The notes under the pieces were generated by a model. It saw only the letters and a program-made list of their open reading frames with translations. It was not told where the DNA came from and did not search any database. A stretch of DNA of 64,000 nt from a virus (taxonomy: Duplodnaviria; Caudoviricetes): IMG/VR virus record IMGVR_UViG_3300002026_000256, positions 1 through 64,000 of that record. One strand, 5' to 3'. Shown in pieces: positions 28,484 through 43,955 of this stretch. A program made the translations under genes and the position numbers. The stretch's first letter is position 1, and each line of letters begins with the position of its first letter.

Positions 28484-29185
28484 ATGCTACTTACAGAGTT
28501 TTTCACATCAGATTTAGACGAAGGGATTCACGATCCTAATATTTTTAAAGCTGTTTTCATGGCTGGCCCTCCGGGCGCTGGCAAAAATACAGTTATATCG
28601 CATCTTGGCTTAACTAGTTCAGGTCTAAAACTTCAAGACATTGATCAAGTTAAAGCGCATCTTGCAAAAATAAAGCCAAATGCTGATTATACAGATAGCT
28701 TAACTACAACGATTAGACGGCAAAATCAGTATCAAACTAGCATGCTAGGGTTAACAATTAATACAACTGGTAGAGACTCAGAAAACTTAATGCAGTTAAA
28801 CAAACAACTTAAAAACGCTGGATATGATACTTTTTTGTTGTTTGTTGATGTAAATTATGATATTGCGTTAACACGAATCAACGATCGTGAAAGAACTGCA
28901 ACGAACCCAGCAGACAAACGCAAAGTTGATATGGACTATTTTGTTGACGCTTATGACTCAAGCAAGAAAAATATGGATTTTTATGCACTTATGTTTGGTG
29001 CACAATTTTCATTAGTAACAAACAATTGGGCGACTGATGATGGTCAAAGTCAAAAGGAATATGCTCACTCAGTGCGGATGGCATATAAAAAGATCAATCG
29101 ATTTTTGCATAAACCACTAACCCCCATTGCGCAAAGAATAGTTGACAGCTCTGCTAGCGATAGAAATACTACTTATAGAAGTTAA
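28484..29185 (+). CDS. P-loop kinase (Zeta toxin / AAA_33-like)
   Basis: MAGPPGAGKN Walker A, LTINTTG, FVDVNYDIAL.RI..R lid. Confidence 0.75.
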   Translation: MLLTEFFTSDLDEGIHDPNIFKAVFMAGPPGAGKNTVISHLGLTSSGLKLQDIDQVKAHLAKIKPNADYTDSLTTTIRRQNQYQTSMLGLTINTTGRDSENLMQLNKQLKNAGYDTFLLFVDVNYDIALTRINDRERTATNPADKRKVDMDYFVDAYDSSKKNMDFYALMFGAQFSLVTNNWATDDGQSQKEYAHSVRMAYKKINRFLHKPLTPIAQRIVDSSASDRNTTYRS

Positions 29186-31049: not shown

Positions 31050-31222
31050 GTTGACTTTTCCTGAAAGGTGTGTATAATCAGTATTTAGCGCAAGTGATGT
31101 TACAACAAAACAACATTTCGGTGAAAAAAGTGTAGACAAATTACAGAAGTAGTGTTACACTTGGTATAAATAACTTTACGAAGCAAAATTTTTTGTTTCG
31201 GATAAATAAATTTAGTCAGTAG

Positions 31223-31251
31223 TTGACAGCAAGAATAAATAATGTTATACT
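31223..31251 (+). promoter_or_regulatory. sigma70 promoter with extended -10
   Basis: TTGACA-17-TATACT preceded by TGn. Confidence 0.85.
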
Positions 31252-31299
31252 TGATGCTTAGGTTAGTAATTTTTAAGAAAGAATTTAGAGCGTAACAAA

Positions 31300-31458
31300 A
31301 TGAAATCGTCCGTACATAGTTTAACCCATACCTTTAGTTTAGTGCCGTTGTGGCTCCAGACTACTGCGATTATGGCGGCTGGGTCGGAGATTATAACACC
31401 ACGTTGCGGTTCAAATTATGATAAATCGTTGGGGTTTGATAAAGGAAGGGTTGTTTAG
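31300..31458 (+). CDS. Putative attenuator leader peptide (52 aa)
   Basis: MKSSVHSLTHTFSLVPLWLQTTAIMAAGSEIITPRCGSNYDKSLGFDKGRVV*; lies between the promoter and a terminator; contains all 20 amino acids. Confidence 0.55.
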   Translation: MKSSVHSLTHTFSLVPLWLQTTAIMAAGSEIITPRCGSNYDKSLGFDKGRVV

Positions 31459-31485
31459 CACTTAGCAAACAACTACAAATTTAAC

Positions 31486-31521
31486 AAACCCTAGGACCAA
31501 AACCCTAGGGTTTTTTGTTTT
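31486..31521 (+). terminator. Intrinsic terminator with alternative antiterminator pairing
   Basis: AAACCCTAGG-ACCAAAAC-CCTAGGGTTT then TTTGTTTT; the 5' arm can instead pair with TTGGGGTTTG (31429-31438). Confidence 0.85.
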
Positions 31522-31550
31522 GTAAATGATAAAAATAAATTAAAAAGTAG

Positions 31551-31579
31551 TTGACAAATAGATAAATTAATGTTAAAAT
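31551..31579 (+). promoter_or_regulatory. sigma70 promoter
   Basis: TTGACA-17-TAAAAT with TGn. Confidence 0.75.
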
Positions 31580-32034: not shown

Positions 32035-32110
32035 GGGCTGATAGTGATACTGGGGTACACGATGGTTTTGCAATCCATAGATAGGAGTTCGATCCTCCTT
32101 CGGTCCACCA
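32035..32110 (+). tRNA. tRNA-Ala(TGC)
   Basis: G3.U70, loop TTTGCAA, CCA. Confidence 0.85.
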
Positions 32111-32115
32111 AATTT

Positions 32116-32199
32116 GGAGATGTGGGTGAGTGGCTGAAACCGGAAGTCTGTAAAACTTCTCTTAATCGCGCGTTGGTTCGAATCCAACCGTCTCCACCA
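32116..32199 (+). tRNA. tRNA-Tyr(GTA)
   Basis: GAAGT-CTGTAAA-ACTTC, CCA. Confidence 0.93.
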
Positions 32200-32204
32200 A
32201 ATAC

Positions 32205-32398
32205 TAAGATGTTAGTGAGTAAGATAGTAGACGAAAACCGAGCCGTGCCTTCCGTGCGGTCTTCACAGTGCGTGGACACAATGAGAAACGTAAGGTGACG
32301 AACGATGAGCAAAGTCGGTCCAGTAGGGTATGAAAAGTAACATTGGCGGTGACGTTGCCGCAGGACAGAAGCTCTAGGGCGCCGCGTAATCCTGCAAG
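32205..32398 (+). ncRNA. Unidentified structured RNA in a tRNA slot (some RNase P-like words)
   Basis: About 190 nt between two tRNAs; stems GCAGGA/TCCTGC, GGCGG/TTGCC, ACCG/CGGT. Confidence 0.4.
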
Positions 32399-32403
32399 AA
32401 TTT

Positions 32404-32478
32404 GGGCTGCTAGTATAGGGGGAATTACCACTGCCTTGCACGTAGTAAATCGGAGTTCGAGTCTCCGGCGGTCCACCA
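32404..32478 (+). tRNA. tRNA-Ala(TGC), second copy
   Basis: G3.U70, ACTGC-CTTGCAC-GTAGT, CCA. Confidence 0.9.
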
Positions 32479-32485
32479 AATTAAT

Positions 32486-32560
32486 GCGGCGTGTAGTGTA
32501 ATGGCAACACACTTCTCTGTGAAAGAAGTATCGATGGTCCGATTCCATCCCGTCCGCCCA
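32486..32560 (+). tRNA. tRNA-His(GTG)
   Basis: CTTCT-CTGTGAA-AGAAG, T-loop TCCGATT, CCA. Confidence 0.85.
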
Positions 32561-32566
32561 GTTTTT

Positions 32567-32642
32567 GCGGTAGTAGCATAGCGGCTAATGCACCTCCCTG
32601 TCTAGGAGACCACCGTGGGTTCGAGTCCCATTTACCGCGCCA
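32567..32642 (+). tRNA. tRNA-Asp(GTC)
   Basis: CTCC-CTGTCTA-GGAG, G73, CCA. Confidence 0.9.
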
Positions 32643-32647
32643 GTTTT

Positions 32648-32676
32648 AGGATCAGTTCAGCAAAGTTGATCCTGTT
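32648..32676 (+). ncRNA. TTCAGCAA stem cassette 1 (minimal)
   Basis: AGGATCAG-TTCAGCAAAG-TTGATCCTGTT. Confidence 0.6.
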
Positions 32677-32683
32677 ATATTTT

Positions 32684-32766
32684 GGAGATGGAAAGCTGAT
32701 GGCTTCAGCACCGAGTCTGTAAAACTCGTCCTTCGGGGAGTGGATCGAAACCACACGTCTCCACCA
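32684..32766 (+). tRNA. tRNA-Tyr(GTA), divergent second copy
   Basis: CGAGT-CTGTAAA-ACTCG, T-loop ATCGAAA, CCA. Confidence 0.85.
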
Positions 32767-32778
32767 AATTTATTAAAT

Positions 32779-32870
32779 GCGAGCGAGACTTGGAAGTCAG
32801 AGAGGCCTTATAAACCTTTTAGCGCCAGATTAGCGTTCTTGAGAAGGTTCGATCCCTTCCGCTCGTACCA
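32779..32870 (+). tRNA. tRNA-Ile(TAT)-like with long variable region
   Basis: GCGAGCG/CGCTCGT acceptor, loop CTTATAA closed by C.A, GAAGG-TTCGATC-CCTTC, ACCA. Confidence 0.7.
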
Positions 32871-32938
32871 AATTCTGGTTACCAGTATTAAGACGGTGAC
32901 TAGCGCCAGCAGACTACCTCGTGGCTGGCATAAATTAT

Positions 32939-33016
32939 TCCGCAGAACGCAAGTATGGACATGGGCGTGGCTGTTAACCACTGTTTAACTCGGATCGTTA
33001 CCGAGGTGCGGAGCCA
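32939..33016 (+). tRNA. tRNA-Asn(GTT), atypical
   Basis: GTGG-CTGTTAA-CCAC, T-loop ATCGTTA, GCCA. Confidence 0.75.
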
Positions 33017-33025
33017 AGTTAGTAT

Positions 33026-33060
33026 AGGGATATGGTGTAATTGGGAGAACGACAGTTTTG
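33026..33060 (+). pseudogene. Orphan 5' half of a tRNA (Trp-like)
   Basis: AGGGATA-TGGTGTAATTGGGAGAAC-GACAGT then breaks off at the endonuclease late promoter. Confidence 0.55.
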
Positions 33061-33073
33061 TATAAATAAAGTT

Positions 33074-33694
33074 ATGCACTATATAATTTATAAAACCTCA
33101 AACATTTTGACTGGTCAATACTATATCGGATGCCATCAAACTTTGAATTTAACAGATGGATATTTAGGGTCTGGGAAATATTTAAAACGTGCTATAAAAA
33201 AGTACGGGGCATCAACTTTTAAATTTGAAATATTGCATGTAGCATCTTCAAAAGAAGAAATGTTTAATATAGAACGTTCGATAGTAAACGAAGAGTTAAT
33301 AACCGATCCATTGTCGTACAACCTAAAGATAGGTGGTAGTGGAGGAAATCCAGGTATTGTTGGGGCATTCAAAGGAAGACAACACTCCGCTGAAACTAAA
33401 GAAAAACAGCGCCAAGCGTCACTTCAACAAGTTACGTCAGATGAAAAACGTCGCAAATTGTCTGAAAACAACGCAATGCGCAATGATCCAGCAATTAGAA
33501 AGAAAGTTGCGCTGTCATTGACAGGCAGAGTTTGCTCAGACGAACATCGTAGTAGAGTAGCAGAAGCTAATCTAGGAAAAATACTAATTAATAACGGCAC
33601 GGTTGCAAAACGCATACCGAAAGACGAGTTAGCAAAATATGAAAATACAGAGTGGTCCAAAGGTGGACTGCCTCGAAAGATAATATCTCGATAG
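33074..33694 (+). mobile_element. Free-standing GIY-YIG homing endonuclease (Seg-like, NUMOD3)
   Basis: YIIYKTSN..QYYIG.H..YLGSG..LKRAIKKYG..F..E..YNL..GG; FKGRQHSAETKEK; stop codon lies inside tRNA-Trp. Confidence 0.9.
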
Positions 33695-33758
33695 TGTAAT
33701 GGCAACACGTTGTTCTCCAAAAGCAACATTCTAGGTTCGAGTCCTAGTCGGGATGCCA
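33685..33758 (+). tRNA. tRNA-Trp(CCA)
   Basis: TTGTT-CTCCAAA-AGCAA, GGTTCGAGTCC, GCCA. Confidence 0.9.
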
Positions 33759-33765
33759 AGTTAAT

Positions 33766-33840
33766 GCGTGTAAGATGTTAATGGTTGCATGATTGGCTTC
33801 CACCCAGTATGAGCAGGTTCGATTCCTGTTACTCGCACCA
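33766..33840 (+). tRNA. tRNA-Gly(TCC)
   Basis: ATTGG-CTTCCAC-CCAGT, CCA. Confidence 0.88.
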
Positions 33841-33880
33841 AACAAGCATGTCTTTGCAGTGGCTAGCATACTGCATAATT

Positions 33881-33954
33881 GCCCCTTTAGTTAAAAAGTA
33901 TAACACTGTGCTGATAACGCAGAGTCGGAGGAGCGTTACCTCCCGGGGGTACCA
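33881..33954 (+). tRNA. tRNA-Ile(GAT), atypical T-loop
   Basis: CTGTG-CTGATAA-CGCAG, T-loop AGCGTTA, CCA. Confidence 0.8.
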
Positions 33955-33962
33955 AGTTTTTT

Positions 33963-34021
33963 AGGTTCCGTTCAGCAAATTCTAAAAATTCAACTTTTAA
34001 TTGAAAAATAAGGAACCTGTT
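33963..34021 (+). ncRNA. TTCAGCAA stem cassette 2 carrying a Lys(UUU) anticodon stem-loop mimic
   Basis: AGGTTCC..GGAACCTGTT enclosing TTCAA-CTTTTAA-TTGAA. Confidence 0.65.
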
Positions 34022-34027
34022 ATCTAT

Positions 34028-34102
34028 ATCCCGTGACGCAGCTAGAGTGGCGACCAGGCCTTCACCCTGGTGAGAGGGGAGCGTAACCCCTACGGGATAC
34101 CA
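34028..34102 (+). tRNA. tRNA-Glu(TTC)-like, atypical (C33, T-loop AGCGTAA)
   Basis: ATCCCGT/ACGGGAT, ACCAGG-CCTTCAC-CCTGGT, ACCA. Confidence 0.65.
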
Positions 34103-34108
34103 ATTTTA

Positions 34109-34181
34109 GCCTTTGTCGTATAACTGGTGTGTACGTGTGCCTGAAGAGCACGAGGAGACGGTTCGATTCCGTACGAAGGTA
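34109..34181 (+). tRNA. tRNA-Phe(GAA), lacking encoded CCA and fused to a Ser remnant
   Basis: TGTGC-CTGAAGA-GCACG, GGTTCGATTCC, ends GAAGGTA. Confidence 0.8.
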
Positions 34182-34241
34182 GTCTTGAAAACTGTCGGTC
34201 CCGAAAGGGGCCCGTGAGTTCGAATCTCACCGTCCCCGCCA
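34181..34241 (+). pseudogene. 3' part of tRNA-Ser(TGA), 5' half missing
   Basis: AGT-CTTGAAA-ACT, long variable arm, GTGAG-TTCGAAT-CTCAC, GCCA. Confidence 0.8.
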
Positions 34242-34248
34242 ACAATAT

Positions 34249-34322
34249 CTTCTGCAAGCATTAAGGTGATGCAGTAGGCTCTTACCCTACAGAACACGGT
34301 CCAATACCGTGGCAGAGGACCA
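34249..34322 (+). tRNA. tRNA-Lys(CTT)
   Basis: GTAGG-CTCTTAC-CCTAC, T-loop TCCAATA, CCA. Confidence 0.8.
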
Positions 34323-34328
34323 AGTTTT

Positions 34329-34429
34329 TGTAGTGCAGTCGGTTAGATTGTGGTAAAGGCGATGCGAGTAGAAGTTCTACTGATAAATATCGAAGCGCAT
34401 CTTAATGATAATGTGTGCAGCCTACTACA
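34329..34429 (+). ncRNA. Unidentified structured RNA in a tRNA slot
   Basis: TGTAGT/ACTACA closing stem, GATGCG/CGCATC, AGTAG/CTACT. Confidence 0.45.
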
Positions 34430-34441
34430 GAAAAGTTTTAT

Positions 34442-34515
34442 GCTTCTAGAGCCAGTTGGATAGGCAGCGGATTGCAAACCCGTGTAACAGAGTTCGATTC
34501 TCTGTAGGAGTTCCA
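34442..34515 (+). tRNA. tRNA-Cys(GCA)
   Basis: Loop TTGCAAA, U73 discriminator, CCA. Confidence 0.85.
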
Positions 34516-34524
34516 GATAAACTA

Positions 34525-34602
34525 GCCCTTGTAGGCAAATTGGTAAAGTCGGCTGTCTCAAAAGCAGTTATTTTGTGAGTTCGAATCTCACCAAGGGCAC
34601 CA
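34525..34602 (+). tRNA. tRNA-Leu(CAA), short variable arm
   Basis: GCTGT-CTCAAAA-GCAGT, CCA. Confidence 0.88.
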
Positions 34603-34643
34603 ATTTATTTCTTGCATTGAGCGAGAACGTGTAAATAGTTATA

Positions 34644-34717
34644 CTCGGTATGGTGAAATGGTATCATTTATGCTTTGGGAGCATATGGCGTAGGTTCGAT
34701 TCCTGCTACCGAGACCA
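34644..34717 (+). tRNA. tRNA-Pro(TGG)
   Basis: TATGC-TTTGGGA-GCATA, CCA. Confidence 0.92.
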
Positions 34718-34724
34718 AGTTTTT

Positions 34725-34806
34725 AGGATAGCTTCAGCAACCCATTACAATTGGCCGTCAGTTTCGATGTTCTGACATTAAACAAAAAGTAGACAGCTAT
34801 CCTGTT
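34725..34806 (+). ncRNA. TTCAGCAA stem cassette 3
   Basis: AGGATAGC..GCTATCCTGTT enclosing GTCAG-TTTCGATGTT-CTGAC. Confidence 0.6.
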
Positions 34807-34813
34807 GCATTTT

Positions 34814-34890
34814 CAGTGTGTGGTGACAAGTGGACGTCGACCTGTTTTGGAAGCAGGAATATGCCGGTTCGAGGCCGGCCACACTGACCA
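34814..34890 (+). tRNA. tRNA-Pro(TGG), divergent second copy
   Basis: CCTGT-TTTGGAA-GCAGG, T-loop TTCGAGG, CCA. Confidence 0.85.
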
Positions 34891-34898
34891 AGTTTTAT

Positions 34899-34973
34899 TC
34901 CCTAGTAGCTCAGCGGTAGAGTAGTTGGCTGTTAACCAATTGGTCCGTGGTTCGATCCCACGCTGGGGAGCCA
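34899..34973 (+). tRNA. tRNA-Asn(GTT), canonical
   Basis: TAGCTCAGCGGTAGAG D-arm, CTGTTAA loop, GCCA. Confidence 0.95.
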
Positions 34974-35007
34974 AGTTTTAAATTAAGAAAAATAATAACA
35001 AACAAAT

Positions 35008-35082
35008 AGTGATATCGTTCAAATAGTAGGACCTGAGTCTCATAAGCTCAAGAAGAAGGGGCAGTACCTTCTATCACTACCA
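35008..35082 (+). tRNA. tRNA with CAT anticodon (Met or Ile2), atypical T-loop
   Basis: TGAGT-CTCATAA-GCTCA, T-loop GGCAGTA, CCA. Confidence 0.75.
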
Positions 35083-35089
35083 AATAAAT

Positions 35090-35165
35090 GCGTGTATAGC
35101 TCAGCTGGTAGAGCAGTTCGTTGCCAACGAACAGGTCGCAGGTTCGAACCCTGTTGCCCGCACCA
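35090..35165 (+). tRNA. tRNA-Gly(GCC)
   Basis: GTTCG-TTGCCAA-CGAAC, CCA. Confidence 0.93.
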
Positions 35166-35172
35166 AATTTTA

Positions 35173-35247
35173 GCTCTTGAAGCATTGACGGCGATGTACC
35201 GGTTTTGTAATCCGGATAGTGGAGTTCAAGTCTTCACAGGAGCACCA
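35173..35247 (+). tRNA. tRNA-Thr(TGT)
   Basis: CCGG(T)-TTTGTAA-(T)CCGG, CCA. Confidence 0.82.
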
Positions 35248-35255
35248 ACACATAT

Positions 35256-35326
35256 TGCGGGGATGAAGGTTCTCGGCCAGTCTCATAAGCTCGGTCTTCC
35301 AAGTTCGATTCTTGGCCCCGCTTCCA
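35256..35326 (+). tRNA. tRNA-Met(CAT), initiator-like, reduced D-arm
   Basis: Unpaired 1:72, GCGGGG/CCCCGC, loop CTCATAA, CCA. Confidence 0.7.
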
Positions 35327-35336
35327 AATTTCAAAT

Positions 35337-35410
35337 GGGGTTGTAATTCAATGGTAGAATATTCGGCTTTTAACCGATCAACGAGGGTCCGATTCCCTCC
35401 AGCCCTACCA
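35337..35410 (+). tRNA. tRNA-Lys(TTT)
   Basis: TTCGG-CTTTTAA-CCGAT, T-loop TCCGATT, CCA. Confidence 0.9.
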
Positions 35411-35416
35411 ACACAT

Positions 35417-35491
35417 GCTGCTATCGACTATCGGTAAGGTCGCTACCCTTTCAAGGTGGAGAGCGGGGTTCAACTCCCCGTAGCAGTACCA
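35417..35491 (+). tRNA. tRNA-Glu(TTC)
   Basis: CTACC-CTTTCAA-GGTGG, CCA. Confidence 0.92.
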
Positions 35492-35566
35492 GCTCTATTA
35501 GTATAGTGGTTACTACAACTGTTTCGTAAGCAGTGATCAGGCGTTCGATTCGTCTATGGAGCACCA
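35492..35566 (+). tRNA. tRNA-Thr(CGT)
   Basis: ACTGT-TTCGTAA-GCAGT; no spacer after the preceding CCA. Confidence 0.88.
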
Positions 35567-35580
35567 AGAATAAATACAAT

Positions 35581-36231
35581 ATGAGCAACACTATATTTGA
35601 ACGCATTGATTCAAGAACTGATTTTGTAAATACCTGGCTATTTGAAATGCCAGAGGGAATTGGTAAATTTGAACTAGTTGATGCAGTTATTTACTCAATT
35701 AAAGATAGAATTAAATCTGGTGCAACAGTCATTGATTTGCCATCTGGATTACGAAAAATTGAAGGTACGCAAGTAGTTGACTATTGGTATGAGAAAGCAG
35801 GAGATATTGTTCTTGGTGCAGAGTTTGAAAAACGTGCACAGGGATTAGTAGTTACAATGATAGGTAAAGCAAATAAAGGCAGACCGCCGTTTGCTTCCGA
35901 CTTGTATAACGCAGTGCTAGCAGATAGGAAAACTTCTGGTGGTATTGATGCAATACGAATTTTAAGTGACCAAGCACTTAGCGATGAAGGAATTAAAATA
36001 TGGGAGCGTCTGCTTAGTCAAGGCCATCATATTTCAATTTACGATGCTAGCGAGCCAGGTAAAACTTTTTCTGAGATTACGACAGTTGCGGATTTGCACA
36101 AATATTTTCAAGACGATAACAGAAATTATCGCCGTTGGCAATATGTAATTTCAGAACAAGCTTCAAATGGTGAAGTGCGCTCATTTTTTAATACTAGAAG
36201 AATGCGAGAGCTAATTCCTGGTATGTTATAA
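35581..36231 (+). CDS. Hypothetical protein embedded in the tRNA array (possible GNAT-like fold)
   Basis: ATG at 35581 after TAAATA; ILSDQALSDEGIKIWERL. Confidence 0.7.
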   Translation: MSNTIFERIDSRTDFVNTWLFEMPEGIGKFELVDAVIYSIKDRIKSGATVIDLPSGLRKIEGTQVVDYWYEKAGDIVLGAEFEKRAQGLVVTMIGKANKGRPPFASDLYNAVLADRKTSGGIDAIRILSDQALSDEGIKIWERLLSQGHHISIYDASEPGKTFSEITTVADLHKYFQDDNRNYRRWQYVISEQASNGEVRSFFNTRRMRELIPGML

Positions 36232-36240
36232 TAGTTTTAA

Positions 36241-36331
36241 GGAGAGCGGGCAGGCCGGTAATGCAGCACCCTGCTAAGGTGTAGAGTCGTGATGAGCGGC
36301 TCATAGGGTTCGATTCCCTAGCTCTCCGCCA
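36241..36331 (+). tRNA. tRNA-Ser(GCT)
   Basis: GCACC-CTGCTAA-GGTGT, long variable arm, GCCA. Confidence 0.92.
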
Positions 36332-36337
36332 ATTTAC

Positions 36338-36413
36338 TGGGGGTTTGTCATTTGGTAATGACACTACGCTTTGACCGTAGGAAAGTCGGGTCCGATTCCC
36401 ACACCCTCTGCCA
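36338..36413 (+). tRNA. tRNA-Gln(TTG)
   Basis: CTACG-CTTTGAC-CGTAG, T-loop TCCGATT, GCCA. Confidence 0.82.
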
Positions 36414-36621
36414 ATGCTAACAATTTATCGACAACGACAAAGAGCATAACCAAGTATTGTACGAGCTAGGTCTACTAGACGATGATGACGATTGGAATCT
36501 GTTTTGCAAGATGCAACGCGAGCAGATGGAAAATGATCCTGACTCTGAAACTTGGCACAAAGCAATGGGAACAGTTCCACAGGAAATACCCACTACTGGG
36601 TGGTGGATCAAAGCAAAATGA
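36414..36621 (+). pseudogene. Small ORF with apparent frameshift
   Basis: MLTIYR.. stops early; a second frame reads DKEHNQVLYELGLLDDDDDW..PTTGWWIKAK*. Confidence 0.4.
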
Positions 36622-36854
36622 ATTTAACTGAACAACTCGTTGAGTTAGCAGAGCAAATTGAAATGGGTGACCCAATTGATTGGGGCATGCTTAGTATTAA
36701 TGAACACGATGCATACAAGTTAATGGCAGCAGGCGTATTAGACAACTATTTGGGCATGGATCCAGACTGTCGTGATATGATGTTGCTTGCTACAGTAGTT
36801 AAGCTAACTGTAGAGAATTTTGCACTTAACTTAAAGTTGATGCAACAAAAATAA
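36618..36854 (+). CDS. Hypothetical protein
   Basis: MNLTEQLVELAEQIEMGDPIDWGML..; ATGA-coupled; ends immediately before tRNA-Leu. Confidence 0.7.
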   Translation: MNLTEQLVELAEQIEMGDPIDWGMLSINEHDAYKLMAAGVLDNYLGMDPDCRDMMLLATVVKLTVENFALNLKLMQQK

Positions 36855-36931
36855 GCGGATGTAGACAAATTGGTAAAGTCAGCGGTCTTAGAAGCCGTTA
36901 TCTGAGAGTTCGAGTCTCTCCTTCCGCACCA
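36855..36931 (+). tRNA. tRNA-Leu(TAG), short variable arm
   Basis: GCGGT-CTTAGAA-GCCGT, CCA. Confidence 0.9.
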
Positions 36932-36936
36932 AATTA

Positions 36937-37019
36937 GTGGAATTGGCTAAGACAAATTGGCACAGTCGCCAGATTTAAAACCTGGGCTTTTATGGGTTCG
37001 AGTCCCATATTCCACACCA
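36937..37019 (+). tRNA. tRNA-Leu(TAA)-like, atypical
   Basis: GTGGAAT/ATTCCAC, CCAG(A)-TTTAAAA-(C)CTGG, short variable arm, CCA. Confidence 0.65.
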
Positions 37020-37025
37020 AATAAA

Positions 37026-37100
37026 ATCGCCTTCGTATAGTGGATAATACACAAGCCTGCGAAGCTTGAAACACAGGTCCGATTCCTGTAGGCGGTACCA
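37026..37100 (+). tRNA. tRNA-Arg(GCG)
   Basis: CAAGC-CTGCGAA-GCTTG, CCA. Confidence 0.85.
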
Positions 37101-37107
37101 CTCACAA

Positions 37108-37181
37108 GCCTCGGTAGTTTAATGGTAGAACATTGCTCCTACAAAGCAAATGCGACGGTTCAATTCCGTAACGAGGTACCA
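37108..37181 (+). tRNA. tRNA-Val(TAC)
   Basis: TTGCT-CCTACAA-AGCAA, CCA. Confidence 0.85.
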
Positions 37182-37186
37182 ATTAT

Positions 37187-37265
37187 GCGCCGGTATGCCG
37201 CTTGTCTTCGAAACAAGAGAAAGCTAACTGGATACATGCACGTTCGAATCGTGTTCGGCGCACCA
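37187..37265 (+). tRNA. tRNA-Arg(TCG)-like, D-armless with long variable region
   Basis: GCGCCGG/TCGGCGC, 7-nt linker, CTTGT-CTTCGAA-ACAAG, T arm, ACCA. Confidence 0.65.
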
Positions 37266-37271
37266 AAATAA

Positions 37272-37345
37272 GCTCTCGTATGTAAATGGTATACTAACTC
37301 TTTGGTAAGGAGTTGTCCCAAGTTCGATTCTTGGCTAGAGCACCA
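37272..37345 (+). tRNA. tRNA-Thr(GGT)
   Basis: ACTCT-TTGGTAA-GGAGT, CCA. Confidence 0.88.
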
Positions 37346-37350
37346 CATAA

Positions 37351-37425
37351 CTCGCTATCGTATAGTGGAAAATACAGAAGTTTCCTAAACTTTAAACGGT
37401 CGTTCGATTCGACCTAGCGTGACCA
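37351..37425 (+). tRNA. tRNA-Arg(CCT)
   Basis: GAAGT-TTCCTAA-ACTTT, CCA. Confidence 0.85.
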
Positions 37426-37447: not shown

Positions 37448-37681
37448 ATGTTTAAATTATATTGGACTGATAAAGACGGAATAACAAATGGGAAGTATTC
37501 TGCTGACTTGATGACAGCATTGCAGTTGTCAGAAACGTTGCGTAAAGCAGGAAACACTTTCGTCACAATGGTCAGTGAAAACCCTAACTCAGTTGGTAAA
37601 CCTGGGGTAGACAGCATACAGGGCGGGAAGTGCCCGAGCGGAGAGATGTATGGCTGGTCTAAGCGAAGAAGTGCAGCATAA
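37448..37681 (+). CDS. Hypothetical protein
   Basis: 77 aa MFKLYWTD..FVTMVSENPNSVGKPGVDSI..YGWSKRR. Confidence 0.7.
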   Translation: MFKLYWTDKDGITNGKYSADLMTALQLSETLRKAGNTFVTMVSENPNSVGKPGVDSIQGGKCPSGEMYGWSKRRSAA

Positions 37682-37695
37682 TTCACAATTTGTTG

Positions 37696-37724
37696 TTGAC
37701 TTTTGGCAAGATCTGCGTTATAAT
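37696..37724 (+). promoter_or_regulatory. sigma70 promoter driving the hairpin-cassette array
   Basis: TTGACT-17-TATAAT. Confidence 0.8.
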
Positions 37725-37783
37725 ACTCACATAGCAGGAAACGATAGAGTTACTTGCAGCAAGTTCTTTAACATTTTATGAAA

Positions 37784-38483
37784 TCCTGAGACAATAGCGC
37801 GACGATATCAGGAAGTCATATTCAAGCATAATGCAACGGTGACCAAACCGAAAGTCCAACTAATCATACCATAGATATGTTGCGGTATGTGTGCTTGAAT
37901 ATGATTATCATAGTAAAGGGCAGTGCCTGAGACTGTCAGTGAATAGTTAGATTGGTGATATTAGGGCCTTATACGAGTGACGTATATCAGACTTGAGAGT
38001 CAACCAATAAACCTAATCATCTGCTCTTTACTATGATTATCCTGAGACAATAGCGCAACGATAGGAAACTCGAGTGAAGGGTCAACGACAATAGCAGCAC
38101 GATATCAGGAGATCATATTGAATATTTTTGTTGCAACCAATCTTCGCATATTGGGGTCGGTCAATGTTTTAGAAATATTCAATATGGTATCATCAAGTTT
38201 ATAATGTGTCATTCATGGGACTGGATATAAAAGGTCACACTGAGGCTCGGAATCTTAGGCATTATAAACACTAGCAGACAAAGGGTTTTGCAAGACCTGT
38301 GTTGGTATAGCTCTGTACTACGGAGTATCCTGTTCGATTCAGGGTTTGTTAGGATGATTATCATATTAAAATGTCTTTTAACCCGTTAGGTAGTGGAACG
38401 TGAACGAGAACCCTGATTAATCTAGATTAATCATTTCAGCCGACGAAACGAGCATCGCTACTACAAAGGCATTTTAATATGAT
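37784..38483 (+). ncRNA. Tandem array of seven hairpin-enclosed RNA cassettes
   Basis: Abutting units closed by 6-19-bp stems with G.U pairs and shared ends (ATCAT..ATGAT or TCCTGA..TCAGGA); no ORF of 60 aa or more in the track. Confidence 0.75.
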
Positions 38484-38489
38484 AAATAC

Positions 38490-38731
38490 GGGGGTATATT
38501 CTAGATACTGAGGAAGCCTCAGATGGTCTTGTGCATAATGTACATAATACATGATCATGCTTGTTGATGCGATTTCAACTGCCGCCCACCAACAAATGAT
38601 GCAGATACTTCGTCCCGAATTAATATAGGTTCCACGAAAGTTGTGAAAGTAAAACTAATGCTGCAACAGATAACTAGATCATGTTGTTATCAACTAAACA
38701 AACGGGAAGGCTGTGAAACAATCCGCCACCG
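38490..38731 (+). ncRNA. Structured RNA, possibly a degenerate or permuted tmRNA
   Basis: Starts GGGGGTA; internal ..TTTCAACTGCCGCCCACCA; later AATGCT-GCA ACA GAT AAC TAG; long-range pairing 38544-38556/38677-38690. Confidence 0.4.
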
Positions 38732-38742
38732 TTATTTAACGG

Positions 38743-38771
38743 TTGACTTTATCAAATAATTACGCTATAAT
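38743..38771 (+). promoter_or_regulatory. sigma70 promoter
   Basis: TTGACT-17-TATAAT. Confidence 0.8.
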
Positions 38772-38801
38772 AATGCATATAAACGCAACAGCAAAGGCAT
38801 T

Positions 38802-39279: not shown

Positions 39280-39364
39280 AAGGCAATAGCAAGTAATGGC
39301 AAGGTGGTAGGTCATCCAAGTAATTTTGGTTTTGCAGTCGAAGGTTCGAATCCTTCTTGCCTTT
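39280..39364 (+). pseudogene. tRNA-like element, anticodon undetermined, no CCA
   Basis: AAGGCAA/TTGCCTT acceptor-like stem and GAAGG-TTCGAAT-CCTTC T arm. Confidence 0.45.
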
Positions 39365-39412
39365 GTAAATAACTATAGATTAAATAAGAGTATTCAAACA
39401 CAATAATAAATT

Positions 39413-39655
39413 ATGGAAACACAAACAATGAAACCAATTTGGGTAACAGTGCACGTTGAGGCAGAAGTTGATCCAGTTTTTGATAGCCATCAACTTGCGT
39501 GGTCTGAGCGGCAATTTACTAATGCAACGCCTTTGTATATTGAAAATCCTGCTACATTTGTAATTCGTGACATGACAGACAAAGAAATGGAAGATAATCC
39601 AGAAGCAGTAGCATTTTTTAATGCGTTAGTTAAAGAGTTGGGTGAAGATTACTAA
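39413..39655 (+). CDS. Hypothetical protein
   Basis: 80-aa ORF. Confidence 0.55.
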   Translation: METQTMKPIWVTVHVEAEVDPVFDSHQLAWSERQFTNATPLYIENPATFVIRDMTDKEMEDNPEAVAFFNALVKELGEDY

Positions 39656-40123
39656 TTTATATGAACAAACAAATTAAAGAACATTTCGGAGTTAAATGAC
39701 GAGCACTAAACTTGAAGAACGTATTAAAGAGCTTAAACTTATAGTAGCACAAAGTTTTGATCCAATTAAACATTATTCTGCAGACGAATATGAAATTGAA
39801 TTTGATCGCAGATTTGCAGAGTTGATTATTAAAGAATGTGCATTGGTTGTTTTCAAAAACACAGGACCAAAATCATCACTTCGTGTATTGGAACATTTTG
39901 GAGTTGAAGAATGAACGAGTTAATCAAAGAGTTGTTAGAAAAATCTGCGGTATATGATAATGCCAGTGGTTATTTTATTAAAACTGATCAAGAAAAGTTT
40001 GCAAAGTTAATTGTTGAAGAATGTGCTTCTCAATTGTGCTGTGAAAAATTTGTAAATTCCACGGACAAAAATAAAGTAATGGTAGGTCAAGCAGTTATTC
40101 TTAATCATTTTGGTTTTTAATAT

Positions 40124-40315
40124 ATGGATACTTTTTTAAATTTATCGGGGGTAATATGCTCTAAATGTGGGGAGCATCCTGAACATATAGAGTGGGATTA
40201 TACCTATGACTATGATGGGAATGATTGTGTTCATGAATATGGTAAATACATTTGTCAGTGTGGTAATTCTGAACAATTTTGTACTAATGATCCCTATGAG
40301 GATGAGGAAGATTAA
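40124..40315 (+). CDS. Small Zn-ribbon protein
   Basis: CSKC..CQCG. Confidence 0.55.
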   Translation: MDTFLNLSGVICSKCGEHPEHIEWDYTYDYDGNDCVHEYGKYICQCGNSEQFCTNDPYEDEED

Positions 40316-40470
40316 ATTATTATCTTGAATTGTCTTTTAATAATAGTTATATGAAAATATTTTGGATGAGTTGCGCTGAGTGTTCTATGACACAACCAAT
40401 GCAGCCTTGTGAGGCTTGTCCTAATAGAAAGGCTCAAGGATTATGAACGAACGAATTCAGGAACTTTAAT

Positions 40471-40734
40471 ATGTCTCCATATAAACAAATGCAAGTTATT
40501 AGTTATTGTAGAGGGTTAGTTGGGAGTATGTTCGCAGACTTCCATGATGATAATATGAAAGGTAGTAATTTTACATGGGAAAACTTTCCGAATATGATGG
40601 CAAGTTTAGCATCTGCTAATGTTAGTTGTGTTATTCGTACAAATAAAAATACGAAAAAAGATATTGAAACTTTTGCCACTAATACTGCTAAGGATTTTGC
40701 TACCATATTACTGAAAAATGCGAAATATATATGA
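40471..40734 (+). CDS. Hypothetical protein
   Basis: 87 aa, ATGA-coupled to the next ORF. Confidence 0.55.
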   Translation: MSPYKQMQVISYCRGLVGSMFADFHDDNMKGSNFTWENFPNMMASLASANVSCVIRTNKNTKKDIETFATNTAKDFATILLKNAKYI

Positions 40735-41615
40735 ATGACCGAATTAAAGAACTTGCTGAACAGGCAAGCACAGTAGAGGATACTTACCCAGAGGGTAATT
40801 ATGGCTACCCCACTCGCCTGTATAAGTTTAGTAAAGCAAAGTTTGCTCAGCTAATCATTGATGACTGCATTGCTATCATATTTAAAGAACAGGAATATGG
40901 TGAAAATCGTCACGATGATTACAATCTAGGATTGTATGAAGCATATCGAGAAATCAAAGAACATTTTGGAATTAAATGATGAAAAACTTTGAAGAATTAG
41001 CTTTTAAAGCAGGATTTACTGGAAAAGACCTTAGTAATACCCAATTTGGTACATCTTATAAACATGCGTTGTCGGATGATTATAAAAATATTCTGAACCA
41101 CTTTAATATTCCTCTTGATGAGGATGAAGAATTGGATGATGGTTGTCCCTGTGGACATGATGGCGGAACAAGTTGTAGTGCAGTAAATTGTGAGTATTAA
41201 TGTGATTGATAGAATCTCTGAAAATCTTTTAATAGTGTGCTTTACTATCTTGGTATACATTAGTTTAGTAATCGAATTGGTAAAGGGATGCTACTATAAA
41301 ATTTTTAGAATTCCACACAAGAAATTATTAGGAAAATTTCATCCAATCTATGTGAGAACTTATGAATGAACGAATTGTAGAACTTGCAGAACTTGCAGGA
41401 TTTGAAAAAGATAAGTATGATTTGTTTTGGGATGCCAATGCAAATTCAGAAGGTGTGGATTTGGAAAAGTTCGCAAAACTAATAATTAACGAATGCATTG
41501 GCTTTATTGCAGTAAGAAAAAGAATTGCAATAAATGAAGGTATGCGAGAAGAACTTGCAGGATTGTTAACTGTGCAAGGTGATATTGAACGTTGTTTTGA
41601 AGATGAGTACACAGA

Positions 41616-41825
41616 ATGAAACTCAAAAACGTATATGATGAACCAATGCTAGTATGCCCTGAGTGTGGCAGTGACAAAGTAACTGTTGCCCACGTACAGA
41701 AGTTTATGGCAAATACTGGTGAGCACTGGTGCCATTCTGTAAAGACCCAAGACTCTAACTCAGAGGCAGGGTGCTTAGATTGTGGTTGGAATGGAATGCG
41801 TCAAGATTTGCAGGAAGTGAGTTAG
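41616..41825 (+). CDS. Small Zn-ribbon protein
   Basis: CPECGSD..CLDCGW. Confidence 0.65.
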   Translation: MKLKNVYDEPMLVCPECGSDKVTVAHVQKFMANTGEHWCHSVKTQDSNSEAGCLDCGWNGMRQDLQEVS

Positions 41826-42189
41826 AGTAATTAGAACGTCAATGTTAGTTCCTTGTTTTCTACTTGCGATAGTATGCTTGCCACTCTTGCCACTATTGGT
41901 TGAGATTATCAAAGATATTCCGTTTTACTTTGAGATGATTTGCAAATGAATGAAACAATTACACGTTGCATTGAACAATCATCTACTACAGAATATTTTG
42001 ATGGTCGTGGTAACGTAACGTCTACTCATTTTGATAAAGAAAAGTTTGCTCAATTGGTTGCTTCAGAATGTGCTGCGATTGTCAGCTTGTATAGAAGGGA
42101 CAATATGCAAGATAAAGCAATTGCAGATACACTTGAGCACTGTTACACTGAAATTAAACTTGCGTTTGGATTGAAACTATGACATATTA

Positions 42190-42483
42190 TTGGAGTATCA
42201 AATGAGATTAATGGTAAAGAATTCGTATGACCCATCTGAGTTTGATTTTTATGTAATCAATGGGGAATGGAGTGGTAAGTTTAAAGATGGGCACCTTATA
42301 AAAGTTGCTAAAACTCAACAACATATTCCAATTCAAATAATATGCGACAATCAAGACAGGTTGCGCGGGAATTACAAAGAAGTAATTAACAATTTTAAAA
42401 ATGAGCAGTATGTTGGCCCTCCTGATGAACCAAATTTTGACAACTGGGATAATGTTGAGCGGGTATGGCATTCATTTAAATGA
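42190..42483 (+). CDS. Hypothetical protein
   Basis: 97-aa ORF. Confidence 0.55.
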   Translation: MEYQMRLMVKNSYDPSEFDFYVINGEWSGKFKDGHLIKVAKTQQHIPIQIICDNQDRLRGNYKEVINNFKNEQYVGPPDEPNFDNWDNVERVWHSFK

Positions 42484-42814: not shown

Positions 42815-42898
42815 GCGAGTGTGGAGGAACGGTAGACTCAGAAGACTTAAAAATCTTCCGCTTTATGCGTGTCGGTTCGAATCCGACCACTCGCACCA
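42815..42898 (+). tRNA. tRNA-Leu(TAA) with an 8-nt anticodon loop
   Basis: GAAGA-CTTAAAAA-TCTTC, variable arm, GGTTCGAATCC, CCA. Confidence 0.8.
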
Positions 42899-43145: not shown

Positions 43146-43955
43146 ATGCAAAAAATCTTAATCATGGGCTTACCAGGAGCCGGCAAAACTTATCTGGCAG
43201 CAGCACTAAAAAAATTCTTTGAATCTTATTCTGCACCTATAGAAGGGTGCATATATGATGTTACTTGGTTCAATGCTGATGAAGTTCGCAAAAAGTTTAA
43301 CGACTGGGACTTTTCACATGATGGGCGAATCCGTCAATCTATCCGTATGGCACAACTTGCAATACATGAGCCAGTTGATTATGTAATTGCTGACTTTGTT
43401 GCGCCGCTTGTTGAAATGCGGAATAATTTCAAAGCAGATTGGACTATTTGGGTTGACACAATAACTGAGGGACGGTACGCTGATACAAATAAAGCATTTA
43501 TACCACCAGAGCAGTATGATTTCCGCGTAACTGAGCAAAATGCTGATAAGTGGGCTGAGTTCATTGGGCATCACATTATTGAAAATCGTCGCCGCCCAAC
43601 GTTTAACTGGCAAAAAGAAACTGTGCAAATGTTAGGTAGGTGGCAACCTTGGCATGACGGCCATCGTGCGTTGTTTGACAGATTAATCCAAAAGACTGGG
43701 CAAGTTGTAATTCAAGTGCGCGACTGTCAAGGATGGCAAGGAAGTAATCCATTTGAAATTGCTAAAGTAACTAACTTTATACGACGTGACTTAGATCCAA
43801 TTTATCAAGGTCAGTACGAAATTCAAGTAGTTCCTAACATTACACACATTGGATATGGGCGTGGAGTAGGATACACAATTGAAGAAGAAAAGTTTGGTGA
43901 AGAAGTAACATCAATTAGCGCAACGAACATTAGGAAAGAGTTAGGAATTAATTAA
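43146..43955 (+). CDS. Adenylylsulfate kinase-like domain fused to a nucleotidyltransferase (HxGH) domain
   Basis: GLPGAGKT, NADEVR..DWDFS.DGR.RQ..RM, F.PP..YD; GRWQPWHDGH. Confidence 0.8.
   Translation: MQKILIMGLPGAGKTYLAAALKKFFESYSAPIEGCIYDVTWFNADEVRKKFNDWDFSHDGRIRQSIRMAQLAIHEPVDYVIADFVAPLVEMRNNFKADWTIWVDTITEGRYADTNKAFIPPEQYDFRVTEQNADKWAEFIGHHIIENRRRPTFNWQKETVQMLGRWQPWHDGHRALFDRLIQKTGQVVIQVRDCQGWQGSNPFEIAKVTNFIRRDLDPIYQGQYEIQVVPNITHIGYGRGVGYTIEEEKFGEEVTSISATNIRKELGIN

What the first reader, a model, noticed from the sequence alone, without database searches (positions are those of the whole stretch)
32648..34806. Three AGG-N5-TTCAGCAA..CCTGTT cassettes occupy tRNA slots; one displays a Lys(UUU) anticodon loop
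Seen: copies at 32648-76, 33963-34021 and 34725-806, each right after a tRNA CCA plus T-run. TTCAGCAA and CCTGTT are invariant while the stem covaries (ATCAG/TTGAT, TTCC/GGAA, ATAGC/GCTAT). Inserts differ: none; TTCAA-CTTTTAA-TTGAA (loop identical to the tRNA-Lys at 35337); and a TTCGAT-loop hairpin. Established: PrrC cleaves tRNA-Lys(UUU) and accepts anticodon stem-loops. Inference: a scaffold RNA family that presents decoy loops to tRNA-targeting nucleases.
Basis: partly seen in the sequence, partly recalled or inferred. Interest (0 to 1): 0.78.

Follow-up and report, generated by a model that had tools for sequence, protein, structure and literature searches.

The report
Phage handle RNAs displaying tRNA parts
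Three small RNA genes in this giant phage's tRNA operon share a conserved "handle"; one displays the anticodon hairpin of lysine tRNA, and in other phages the same handle lies directly beside the gene of a Ro60-like ring protein, a pairing I found in no paper or in Rfam.

Summary
The window has exactly three copies of one RNA design: UUUU, a 7-8 bp covarying stem (AGG.../...CCU), one base, UUCAGCAA, a variable insert, an A-rich linker, then GUU. Each copy sits in a tRNA slot of a promoter-driven tRNA operon.

The same design occurs hundreds of times in uncultured phages and almost never closes in bacterial genomes. An unbiased model search reduces the invariant core to stem + 3 nt + CNGCAA.

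The inserts of the short members are strongly enriched for anticodon-type hairpins, most often Lys-UUU and Thr-UGU. Longer members carry whole, capped or permuted tRNA bodies.

In relatives the RNA lies just upstream of, and on the same strand as, a DUF2828+DUF7788 gene whose predicted fold matches Ro60. Among five relatives of this phage, only the one with that gene has the RNAs.

This 74.5-kb record (about 21% of the genome) lacks the gene, also at the syntenic slot.

My best reading is Y-RNA-like partner RNAs that display tRNA parts. A decoy role against anticodon nucleases is plausible but untested.

This scan has found the same system before on other DNA; I re-tested its main claims here.

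The parts
32648..32676 (+). Handle RNA copy 1, handle only. Stem AGGAUCA/UGAUCCU, G, UUCAGCAA, a 3-nt linker, GUU tail, no displayed module.
   Evidence: Sequence. R1 44.4 bits, E 9e-11. Fold -9.2 kcal/mol, z -3.4. Also flagged terminator-like. No other family member this short was seen.
33963..34021 (+). Handle RNA copy 2. Stem AGGUUCC/GGAACCU, G, UUCAGCAA. Displays a 5-bp hairpin with the 7-nt loop CUUUUAA (33989-34005), the tRNA-Lys(UUU) anticodon loop. A-rich linker, GUU tail.
   Evidence: Sequence. R1 69.5 bits. The same insert with different handle stems occurs in L008, L045, L073 and L110. Full-length sub-threshold match to Rfam RF01414: 31.7 bits, cut-off 41.5.
34725..34806 (+). Handle RNA copy 3, the smallest member of the long subclass. 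8-bp stem AGGAUAGC/GCUAUCCU, UUCAGCAA, a small hairpin at 34742-54, a T-loop-like hairpin GUCAG-UUUCGAUGUU-CUGAC (34757-76), a conserved AAACAAAAAGUAGACA (34780-95), GUU tail.
   Evidence: Sequence. R1 41.6 bits. Fold -20.3 kcal/mol, z -2.4. Alignment with seven other phage copies shares the UUUCGA hairpin and the AAAAAGUAG block.
31223..31579 (+). Two strong sigma-70-type promoters (31223-51 and 31551-79; TTGACA, 17 nt, TATACT or TAAAAT, TG-extended) with a terminator between them (31486-31513). Likely drivers of the tRNA/handle-RNA operon.
   Evidence: No strong terminator on the + strand between 32.0 and 37.4 kb apart from copy 1 itself.
32035..37425 (+). Main tRNA array in which the three RNAs occupy slots. 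Includes tRNA-Asp (32567-32642), the tRNA-like element 33881-33951 and tRNA-Pro (34644-34717), which lie directly upstream of the copies, and tRNA-Lys(UUU) at 35337-35410.
   Evidence: ARAGORN, Rfam.

Best explanation
The three elements are genes for small, stable non-coding RNAs of a widespread phage family.

How they are made (inferred): they are transcribed as part of the tRNA operon. They are set free by the same cuts that release the neighbouring tRNAs, namely RNase E-type cleavage in the U-rich spacers and RNase P at the next tRNA. The terminal stem protects the ends.

The constant part is a handle: a 7-bp closing stem, three bases, then an unpaired CNGCAA, with an A-rich 3' linker and a G(UU) tail. 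In other phages this handle is encoded immediately upstream of a protein with the Ro60 fold (Pfam DUF2828 + DUF7788). The handle is therefore most likely that protein's docking site, as the conserved helix and CGAA motif of Y RNAs is for Ro60.

The variable part is a displayed module. In the family it is usually an anticodon arm or a whole, capped or permuted tRNA body. Here the three modules are nothing (copy 1), a tRNA-Lys(UUU) anticodon arm (copy 2) and a T-loop-like hairpin module (copy 3).

The likely job (inferred) is to present tRNA parts to proteins that recognise tRNAs, within or for a Ro60-like RNA-surveillance particle. The most attractive case is bait or decoy for host anticodon nucleases or for tRNA repair and quality control.

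The protein gene is not on this 74.5-kb fragment, so here the RNAs either work with a gene in the unsequenced ~80% of the genome or are orphans.
For: Family and structure:
- A 20-mer pattern scan of viral contigs gave 149 matches. Of these, 123 were closed by a complementary ...CCU, 103 were followed by GUU, and lengths cluster at 48-70 nt. In bacterial genomes the figures were 120, 15 and 1.
- Four of the 7 stem pairs covary, with 151 double changes and a covariation score of 0.548 against 0.086 in shuffles.
- The window has exactly three model hits.

Display:
- 38 of 99 distinct short members have strict anticodon-like loops, against about 1.2 in shuffles.
- In the relaxed anticodon-like subset (116 of 175 short members), Lys-UUU makes up 22 of 116 and Thr-UGU 19 of 116. 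Among the 1408 tRNA genes of the same loci they are 2.9% and 3.3%.
- Long members hold tRNA bodies with a capped acceptor stem, or with the handle in place of the acceptor stem.

Protein link, RNA to protein:
- The top neighbour cluster, in 34 loci, is DUF2828 + DUF7788, PHROG 850 'RNA-binding protein'.
- In most of these 34 loci a copy lies within about 30-500 nt upstream of the gene start, and every copy is on the gene's strand.
- The gene is in 33 of 50 RNA-bearing records and in 6 of 6 complete genomes, against 3 of 33 control records.

Protein link, protein to RNA:
- 71 of 80 loci chosen by the protein have model hits. All 155 hits are on the gene's strand, and many end 10-20 nt before the start codon.

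Fold and published bridge:
- The AlphaFold model's top 13 PDB matches are all Ro60/TROVE, with Foldseek E-values from 7e-7 to 3e-3.
- In mycobacteriophage JoeDirt the homologous gp52 is followed by a YrlA-like match, 39.8 bits, E 2e-7.

Relatives of this phage:
- Of five large relatives, only G086 has the gene and only G086 has the RNAs: three copies, one a Lys-UUU display and one abutting the gene.
Against: - No DUF2828/DUF7788 or TROVE gene is found anywhere in this record. The syntenic slot after the tRNA array holds a kinase instead.
- Binding of the handle to the protein is inferred from linkage only.
- The protein model is of moderate quality: pLDDT 71.7, TM-scores of about 0.35-0.5 to Ro60. 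A sequence profile finds no Ro60 in the PDB, and Pfam TROVE finds nothing in 50 records.
- The handle motif CNGCAA differs from the published Y-RNA motif GNCGAA/CGAA (PMC4201824, PMC12135203), and Rfam YrlA does not match the window copies.
- No expression data exist.
- Counts of displayed anticodons come from related sequences, so they are not independent events.
Confidence: 0.55

Rival explanations
1. Free-standing decoys. The RNAs act alone as competitive substrates or inhibitors for host anticodon nucleases (PrrC, RloC, PARIS-type). The handle merely gives stability and processing.
For: Anticodon-type loops are strongly enriched and biased to Lys-UUU, the classic PrrC/PARIS target. This record has the RNAs but no Ro60-like gene.
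Against: A conserved unpaired CNGCAA next to the stem is not needed for stability. Tight, strand-specific adjacency to one protein family and joint presence or absence in relatives argue for a protein partner. Copies 1 and 3 show no anticodon loop.
Confidence: 0.15
2. In this phage they are orphans: leftovers of a lost Ro60-like module, with little or no present function.
For: The protein gene is absent from the record and from the syntenic slot. The module is patchy among relatives. Copy 1 has lost any insert, which I saw in no other member.
Against: All three keep perfect 7-8 bp stems, the exact motif, and the UUUU and GUU flanks, and they score 42-70 bits. About 80% of the genome is unseen.
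Confidence: 0.15
3. Operon punctuation: hairpins that serve as processing signals, exonuclease barriers or weak terminators between tRNAs.
For: They always lie between U-rich spacers. Copy 1 fits a terminator-like pattern: 11 pairs followed by UUAUAUUUU.
Against: Most tRNA junctions in the same arrays need no such element. Punctuation does not explain the conserved single-stranded motif, the inserts carrying tRNA parts, or the protein linkage. The stems have only 3 G-C pairs.
Confidence: 0.07
4. DNA-level elements: recombination or homing sites that move tRNA-slot cassettes, analogous to integron attC sites.
For: Inserts are exchanged between otherwise similar handles. GIY-YIG and HNH homing endonuclease genes are frequent neighbours.
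Against: The elements are always on the tRNA/gene strand: 155 of 155. Some stems need G-U pairs, for example AGGUUAG/CUAGCCU in L020. The design resembles expressed RNA classes.
Confidence: 0.05
5. Armless mini-tRNAs that are charged and used in translation.
For: A 7-bp terminal stem plus an anticodon arm, about 56 nt in all, recalls armless mitochondrial tRNAs.
Against: There is no CCA, although the tRNA genes in the stretch I read (32.0-37.4 kb) encode one. The first three stem pairs are the same whatever the anticodon. Copy 1 has no anticodon. A full tRNA-Lys(UUU) is present. Neither ARAGORN nor Rfam tRNA calls them.
Confidence: 0.02

Closest known systems
Y RNAs with Ro60/Rsr, especially bacterial and phage YrlA (Rfam RF02553; Chen et al. 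2014, PMC4201824) and Yrl1/Yrl2 of Thermus phage phiLo (PMC12135203)
   Same: Both are small RNAs closed by a 5'/3' terminal stem, with a short conserved motif on the 5' side. Both carry a module that mimics tRNA. Both are encoded next to a ring protein of the Ro60 fold (HEAT ring plus vWA domain), and both occur in phages. A homologue of the neighbour protein in mycobacteriophage JoeDirt sits beside a YrlA-like match.
   Different: The motif is CNGCAA, not GNCGAA/CGAA. There is no Rfam YrlA match. The protein matches Pfam DUF2828/DUF7788, not TROVE. The module is often a bare anticodon arm, which YrlA lacks. Many copies per genome are embedded in tRNA arrays. In this window no protein gene is nearby.
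Class I RNAs of dictyostelid amoebae (Rfam RF01414; Kjellin et al. 2021, PMC7919456)
   Same: Both are about 60 nt, with a short covarying stem joining the ends and a conserved motif ending in CAGCAA directly after the 5' strand. Both have a variable A/U-rich middle and a conserved ...CUGU end. Copy 2 matches the whole Rfam model at 31.7 bits, and a relative (L105:1388-1441) at 39.6 bits.
   Different: Both scores are below the cut-off of 41.5 bits. Class I RNAs have a 6-bp stem and one more base before CAGCAA. They are eukaryotic genes with their own DUSE promoter, and their only known binder is an RRM protein. No link to a Ro60-like protein is known. Common descent is not shown.
Phage T4 and T5 'stable RNAs' in tRNA clusters (from my own knowledge and earlier scan notes; not examined here)
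   Same: Both are small non-tRNA RNAs co-transcribed and processed with phage tRNAs, and their function is unknown.
   Different: Those RNAs are tRNA-framed and larger, and they have no CNGCAA handle. I made no sequence comparison here.
Phage tRNAs that evade or neutralise anticodon nucleases (T5 tRNA-Lys versus PARIS; T4 Pnk/Rnl1 repair of PrrC damage; from my own knowledge)
   Same: The theme is the same: phage RNA answers to cleavage of tRNA-Lys. Kinase and phosphoesterase genes are frequent neighbours of the family.
   Different: Those are complete, decodable tRNAs or repair enzymes, not anticodon arms on a foreign handle.

Membership tests
   Stems AGGAUCA/UGAUCCU, AGGUUCC/GGAACCU and AGGAUAGC/GCUAUCCU.
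   All three copies read N-UU-CAGCAA. Family variants are listed.
   (GTT follows 129 of 156 copies; TTTT precedes 123 of 156).
   Absent from the 74.5-kb record and from the syntenic slot. The record is only about 21% of the genome, so the genome-wide status is open.
Y RNA, YrlA type (Rfam RF02553) | Match to the covariance model at or above 69 bits | tested here: not met
   No YrlA match at E<=1 in 27.5-44 kb, nor at E<=10 for copy 2 alone.
Y RNA, YrlA type (Rfam RF02553) | GNCGAA / CGAA motif near the 5' end (PMC4201824, PMC12135203) | tested here: not met
   The motif here is CAGCAA.
Y RNA, YrlA type (Rfam RF02553) | tRNA-like domain with D and T arms | tested here: not met
   Copy 1 has none, copy 2 has only an anticodon arm, and copy 3 has only a T-loop-like hairpin. 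Some relatives do carry D and T arms.
Y RNA, YrlA type (Rfam RF02553) | Bound by a Ro60 protein | not testable with these tools
   Only genetic linkage in relatives is available.
Dictyostelid Class I RNA (Rfam RF01414) | Match at or above 41.5 bits | tested here: not met
   31.7 bits over the full model length. Copies 1 and 3 gave no match.
Dictyostelid Class I RNA (Rfam RF01414) | Own DUSE promoter about 60 nt upstream, in a dictyostelid genome (PMC7919456) | tested here: not met
   The window is a phage tRNA operon with sigma-70-type promoters about 1 kb upstream and myovirus genes.
tRNA | Cloverleaf recognised by ARAGORN or Rfam RF00005, with a 3' CCA as in the neighbouring genes | tested here: not met
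   None of the three is called. They end in CCUGUU.
Intrinsic terminator | G+C-rich hairpin followed by a U-run | tested here: inconclusive
   Only copy 1 fits the loose pattern: 3 G-C pairs, -9.2 kcal/mol. tRNA genes continue downstream without a new strong promoter.

The most novel reading that the evidence does not exclude
The handle RNAs and the DUF2828/DUF7788 Ro60-like protein form a phage ribonucleoprotein that uses displayed anticodon arms (Lys-UUU, Thr-UGU and others) as bait. It would capture, sense or neutralise host tRNA-cutting defence enzymes, or channel cut tRNAs to repair. The long-unexplained Class I RNAs of dictyostelid amoebae would be eukaryotic members of the same handle-RNA kind.
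Probability: 0.1. Interest if true: 0.9.

Novelty: new variant of a known kind. Interest (0 to 1): 0.72.

Why it matters
If the reading is right, many phages make a Y-RNA-type particle of a new design. These include cultivable ones such as Felix O1-like coliphages and Listeria, Staphylococcus, Vibrio and mycobacterial phages. In this design one constant handle carries interchangeable pieces of tRNA. That would matter in four ways:

- It would assign a function to a large 'domain of unknown function' protein family.
- It would add an RNA-based layer to the conflict over tRNA cleavage between bacteria and phages.
- It would explain non-tRNA genes that clutter phage tRNA arrays and are missed by annotation.
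- It would offer a testable lead on the Class I RNAs of Dictyostelium.

For this window specifically, it shows that the RNAs can occur without the protein gene nearby.

Tried and rejected
- Pfam TROVE (PF05731) found nothing in this record or in 50 RNA-bearing records. A sequence profile of the neighbour protein found no Ro60 among PDB sequences. Only the fold comparison did.
- A loose scan of the window (7-bp stem + CNGCAA, closing within 260 nt) is not specific: 57 hits against 12-30 in shuffles. One tempting hit at 31217 is a sigma-70 promoter, TTGACA...TATACT.
- An Rfam gathering-threshold search over 13 loci was swamped by tRNAs and did not show the weaker families.
- The protein atlas returned only viral DUF2828 clusters, so it says nothing on eukaryotes.
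- Sequencing runs: no RNA holder is listed. I therefore did not lay reads.
- RNA ligase families and RtcB are not found in this record. One of those searches had no positive control.
- The 980-aa protein of the window has no match in five complete RNA-bearing genomes, so those are not close kin.
- Klebsiella jumbo phage fENko-Kae01 has the protein but no model hit within 6 kb.
- The megablast search of phage records found no near relative of the region.
Full report
**What is in the window.**
The window is part of a 74.5-kb IMG/VR virus record estimated at 21% complete. It is a myovirus with tail sheath, tail tube, large terminase, UvsX-like recombinase and SSB genes. Its relatives have genomes of 320-354 kb.

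Between 32.0 and 37.4 kb lies a dense tRNA array on the + strand. Two near-consensus sigma-70 promoters sit at 31223 and 31551.

Each reads UUUU, then a 7-8 bp stem starting AGG, one base, UUCAGCAA, an insert, an A-rich stretch, the complementary strand ending CCU, and GUU. Each follows a tRNA CCA plus a U-run.

- Copy 1 has no insert.
- Copy 2 carries UUCAA-CUUUUAA-UUGAA, whose loop equals that of tRNA-Lys(UUU) at 35337.
- Copy 3 carries GUCAG-UUUCGAUGUU-CUGAC and a conserved AAACAAAAAGUAGACA.

**Is it more than chance?**
AGG-N5-TTCAGCAA occurs three times forward and never in reverse or in the control in the whole record.

Of 149 such sites, 123 are closed by a complementary 7-mer ending CCT, and 103 of these are followed by GTT. 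Most are 48-70 nt long.

The same pattern in 120 sites of bacterial and archaeal genomes closes in only 15, which is about the chance rate, at scattered distances. Only one is followed by GTT.

In an alignment of 99 distinct short copies, the four inner stem pairs covary. There are 151 double changes, and the covariation score is 0.548 against 0.086 in shuffles and at most 0.05 when the pairing is slid. A caveat: the sequences were picked for closing, so the pairing percentage is by construction.

A covariance model built from these copies (R1) finds exactly three hits in the window: 69.5, 44.4 and 41.6 bits, with the next best at 13.7. Copies 1 and 3 were not in the training set.

**What is really conserved.**
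R1 finds 254 copies in 88 loci. The roughly 100 copies that the exact pattern had missed show that the first two letters of the 8-mer vary, as do the middle base of CNGCAA and, more rarely, the third base of the stem start. Variants include AACAGCAA, TACAGCAA, TCCAGCAA and TACCGCAA.

The core is therefore a 7-bp stem, three bases, then CNGCAA.

**What the inserts are.**
- Strict test: of 99 distinct short members, 50 fold with a 7-nt apical loop, and 38 of these have U at position 2 and a purine at position 6. Shuffled inserts give about 5 and 1.2.
- Wider scan: 116 of 175 distinct short members carry an anticodon-type hairpin, against 22.8 in shuffles.
- The repertoire within that relaxed subset is skewed. 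CUUUUAA (Lys-UUU) appears 22 times, CUUGUAA (Thr-UGU) 18 times, then Arg-UCU, Asn-GUU, Tyr-GUA and others. No Glu-UUC was seen. Among the 1408 tRNA genes of the same loci, Lys-UUU and Thr-UGU each make up about 3%.
- These counts are of related sequences, not independent events.

Longer members hold whole tRNA bodies. In some the handle replaces the acceptor stem (for example L053 and L078). In others the order of arms is permuted and the acceptor stem is capped by a loop (L004, L010, L064, L069).

A third subclass, to which copy 3 belongs as the smallest member, shares a UUUCGA hairpin and an AAAAAGUAG block.

Earlier notes of this scan said that this handle goes with a Ro60-like protein. I treated that as a lead and tested it.

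- Pfam TROVE finds nothing.
- Blind clustering of all ORFs in the fetched loci puts one ~476-aa protein first, present in 34 loci.
- It is Pfam DUF2828 + DUF7788, PHROG 850 'RNA-binding protein'.
- In most of those 34 loci a handle RNA lies within about 30-500 nt upstream of its start. Every copy in them is on the gene's strand.
- The gene is in 33 of 50 RNA-bearing records and in all 6 complete genomes. It is in 3 of 33 control records that held only an unclosed chance match.
- In the other direction, 71 of 80 loci picked by the protein have R1 hits. All 155 hits are on the gene's strand, and many end 10-20 nt before the start codon.
- An AlphaFold model (pLDDT 71.7) has as its 13 best PDB matches only Ro60/TROVE structures: Thermus phage phiLo, Deinococcus Rsr, Xenopus and human. 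Foldseek E-values run from 7e-7 to 3e-3 and TM-scores are about 0.35-0.5.
- As a bridge to published work, the homologue gp52 of mycobacteriophage JoeDirt is followed by a sub-threshold but full-length YrlA match: 39.8 bits, E 2e-7.

Other frequent neighbours are a metallophosphoesterase, a polynucleotide-kinase-like P-loop kinase and homing endonucleases.

**This phage in particular.**
No such protein is encoded in the 74.5 kb, by Pfam models or by a profile of the 24 relatives run at full sensitivity.

Of five large relatives (terminase 64-68% identical), only G086 has the gene and only G086 has the RNAs. It has three copies in its tRNA array. One is a Lys-UUU display, and one abuts the gene, which follows the array. 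Two relatives that are at least 92% complete lack both.

In the window the slot after the array holds a kinase gene instead.

So the module is accessory. Here either the gene lies in the unseen ~80% of the genome, or the RNAs are orphans. Their perfect handles argue against decay, although the empty copy 1 is unique among the members I saw.

**How it most likely works.**
Shown: the anatomy, the family, the tRNA-part displays, the genetic coupling to a Ro60-fold protein in other phages, and the operon context.

Inferred:
- The RNAs are released by tRNA-processing cuts.
- The handle docks the protein, as the Y-RNA helix and motif docks Ro60.
- The displayed module recruits or distracts proteins that read tRNA.

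A decoy or bait role against anticodon nucleases fits the Lys-UUU bias and the repair-type neighbours, but it is untested.

**Comparison with known things.**
The closest known system is the Ro60/Y-RNA pair, especially the tRNA-mimicking YrlA (PMC4201824) and the phiLo Yrl RNAs (PMC12135203). The motif, the Pfam family of the protein, the bare anticodon-arm display and the multi-copy residence in tRNA arrays all differ. Rfam YrlA does not match the window copies.

The architecture also closely resembles dictyostelid Class I RNAs (PMC7919456). Copy 2 and a relative match the whole Rfam model at 31.7 and 39.6 bits, below the cut-off of 41.5. I cannot tell descent from convergence.

I found no paper on this family. 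DUF2828 appears only in unrelated plant and tardigrade papers. Searches for phage Ro60/Y RNA and for anticodon decoys gave nothing matching.

**Verdict.**
The elements are members of an uncatalogued, widespread phage RNA family, best read as a new variant of the Y-RNA/Ro60 theme. This scan had already met the same system on other DNA many times. This window adds a case without the protein gene nearby, an empty handle, and the smallest member of the long subclass.

Noticed in passing
window 42815-42898 (+): ARAGORN calls a tRNA with an 8-nt anticodon loop and a four-base anticodon (UAAA). Rfam tRNA scores it 48.1 bits. It could be a quadruplet-reading or frameshift-suppressor tRNA.
   Followed up: no
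window 37680-38800 (+): An ORF-free stretch of about 1.1 kb behind a near-consensus promoter (37696-37724). It holds several copies of an ATCCTGAGACAATAGCGC...GATATCAGGA-like segment (near 37785, 38040 and 38085). It may be a large structured RNA. There was no Rfam match at E<=1.
   Followed up: no
window 32684-32770, 32778-32867, 33881-33951, 34025-34103, 35008-35079, 36338-36410, 36937-37016, 37186-37262, 39280-39364 (+): Many tRNA-like genes that ARAGORN does not call. Some get Rfam tRNA or weak tRNA-Sec hits. Examples: a second Tyr-GUA-like gene with an odd 5-bp/5-nt D arm (32684-32770), and elements whose T loop reads AGCGUAA or AGCGUUA instead of UUCGAAU (34025-34103, 33881-33951).
   Followed up: partly
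window 32200-32400 and 32868-33076 (+): Two G+C-richer ORF-free stretches inside the tRNA array. The second lies just before a GIY-YIG/NUMOD3 homing endonuclease gene (33077-33694). There was no intron match in Rfam.
   Followed up: no
window 39400-42200 (+): At least five small paralogous ORFs that share a motif like KFAxLIIxEC. They are tandemly arranged between tRNA genes.
   Followed up: no
window 53556-60973 (-): A run of paralogous genes with weak radical-SAM (phrog_14086) matches.
   Followed up: no
window 28484-29185 and 43146-43955 (+): Two P-loop kinase genes flank the tRNA region. One is Zeta-toxin/AAA_33-like. The other is phrog_10255 'kinase' with weak KTI12/APS-kinase likeness. 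They may act on RNA or tRNA.
   Followed up: partly
L004:1478-1588, L010:5998-6127, L064:5476-5676, L069:5327-5513, L053:2721-2819: Handle RNAs whose insert is a whole tRNA body. The order of arms is either permuted, with the acceptor stem capped by a loop or a long hairpin, or normal, with the handle replacing the acceptor stem.
   Followed up: partly
L092:9381-9527 and L092:10790-11187 (-): One handle-bearing phage contig also encodes a Polynucleobacter-1 RNA (83 bits) and a permuted tmRNA (92.5 bits).
   Followed up: no
L408:4002-4110 (Mycobacterium phage JoeDirt): A YrlA-like RNA (39.8 bits, below the cut-off of 69) lies directly after gp52. gp52 is annotated only as 'RNA-binding protein' and is a DUF2828-type homologue.
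   Followed up: partly
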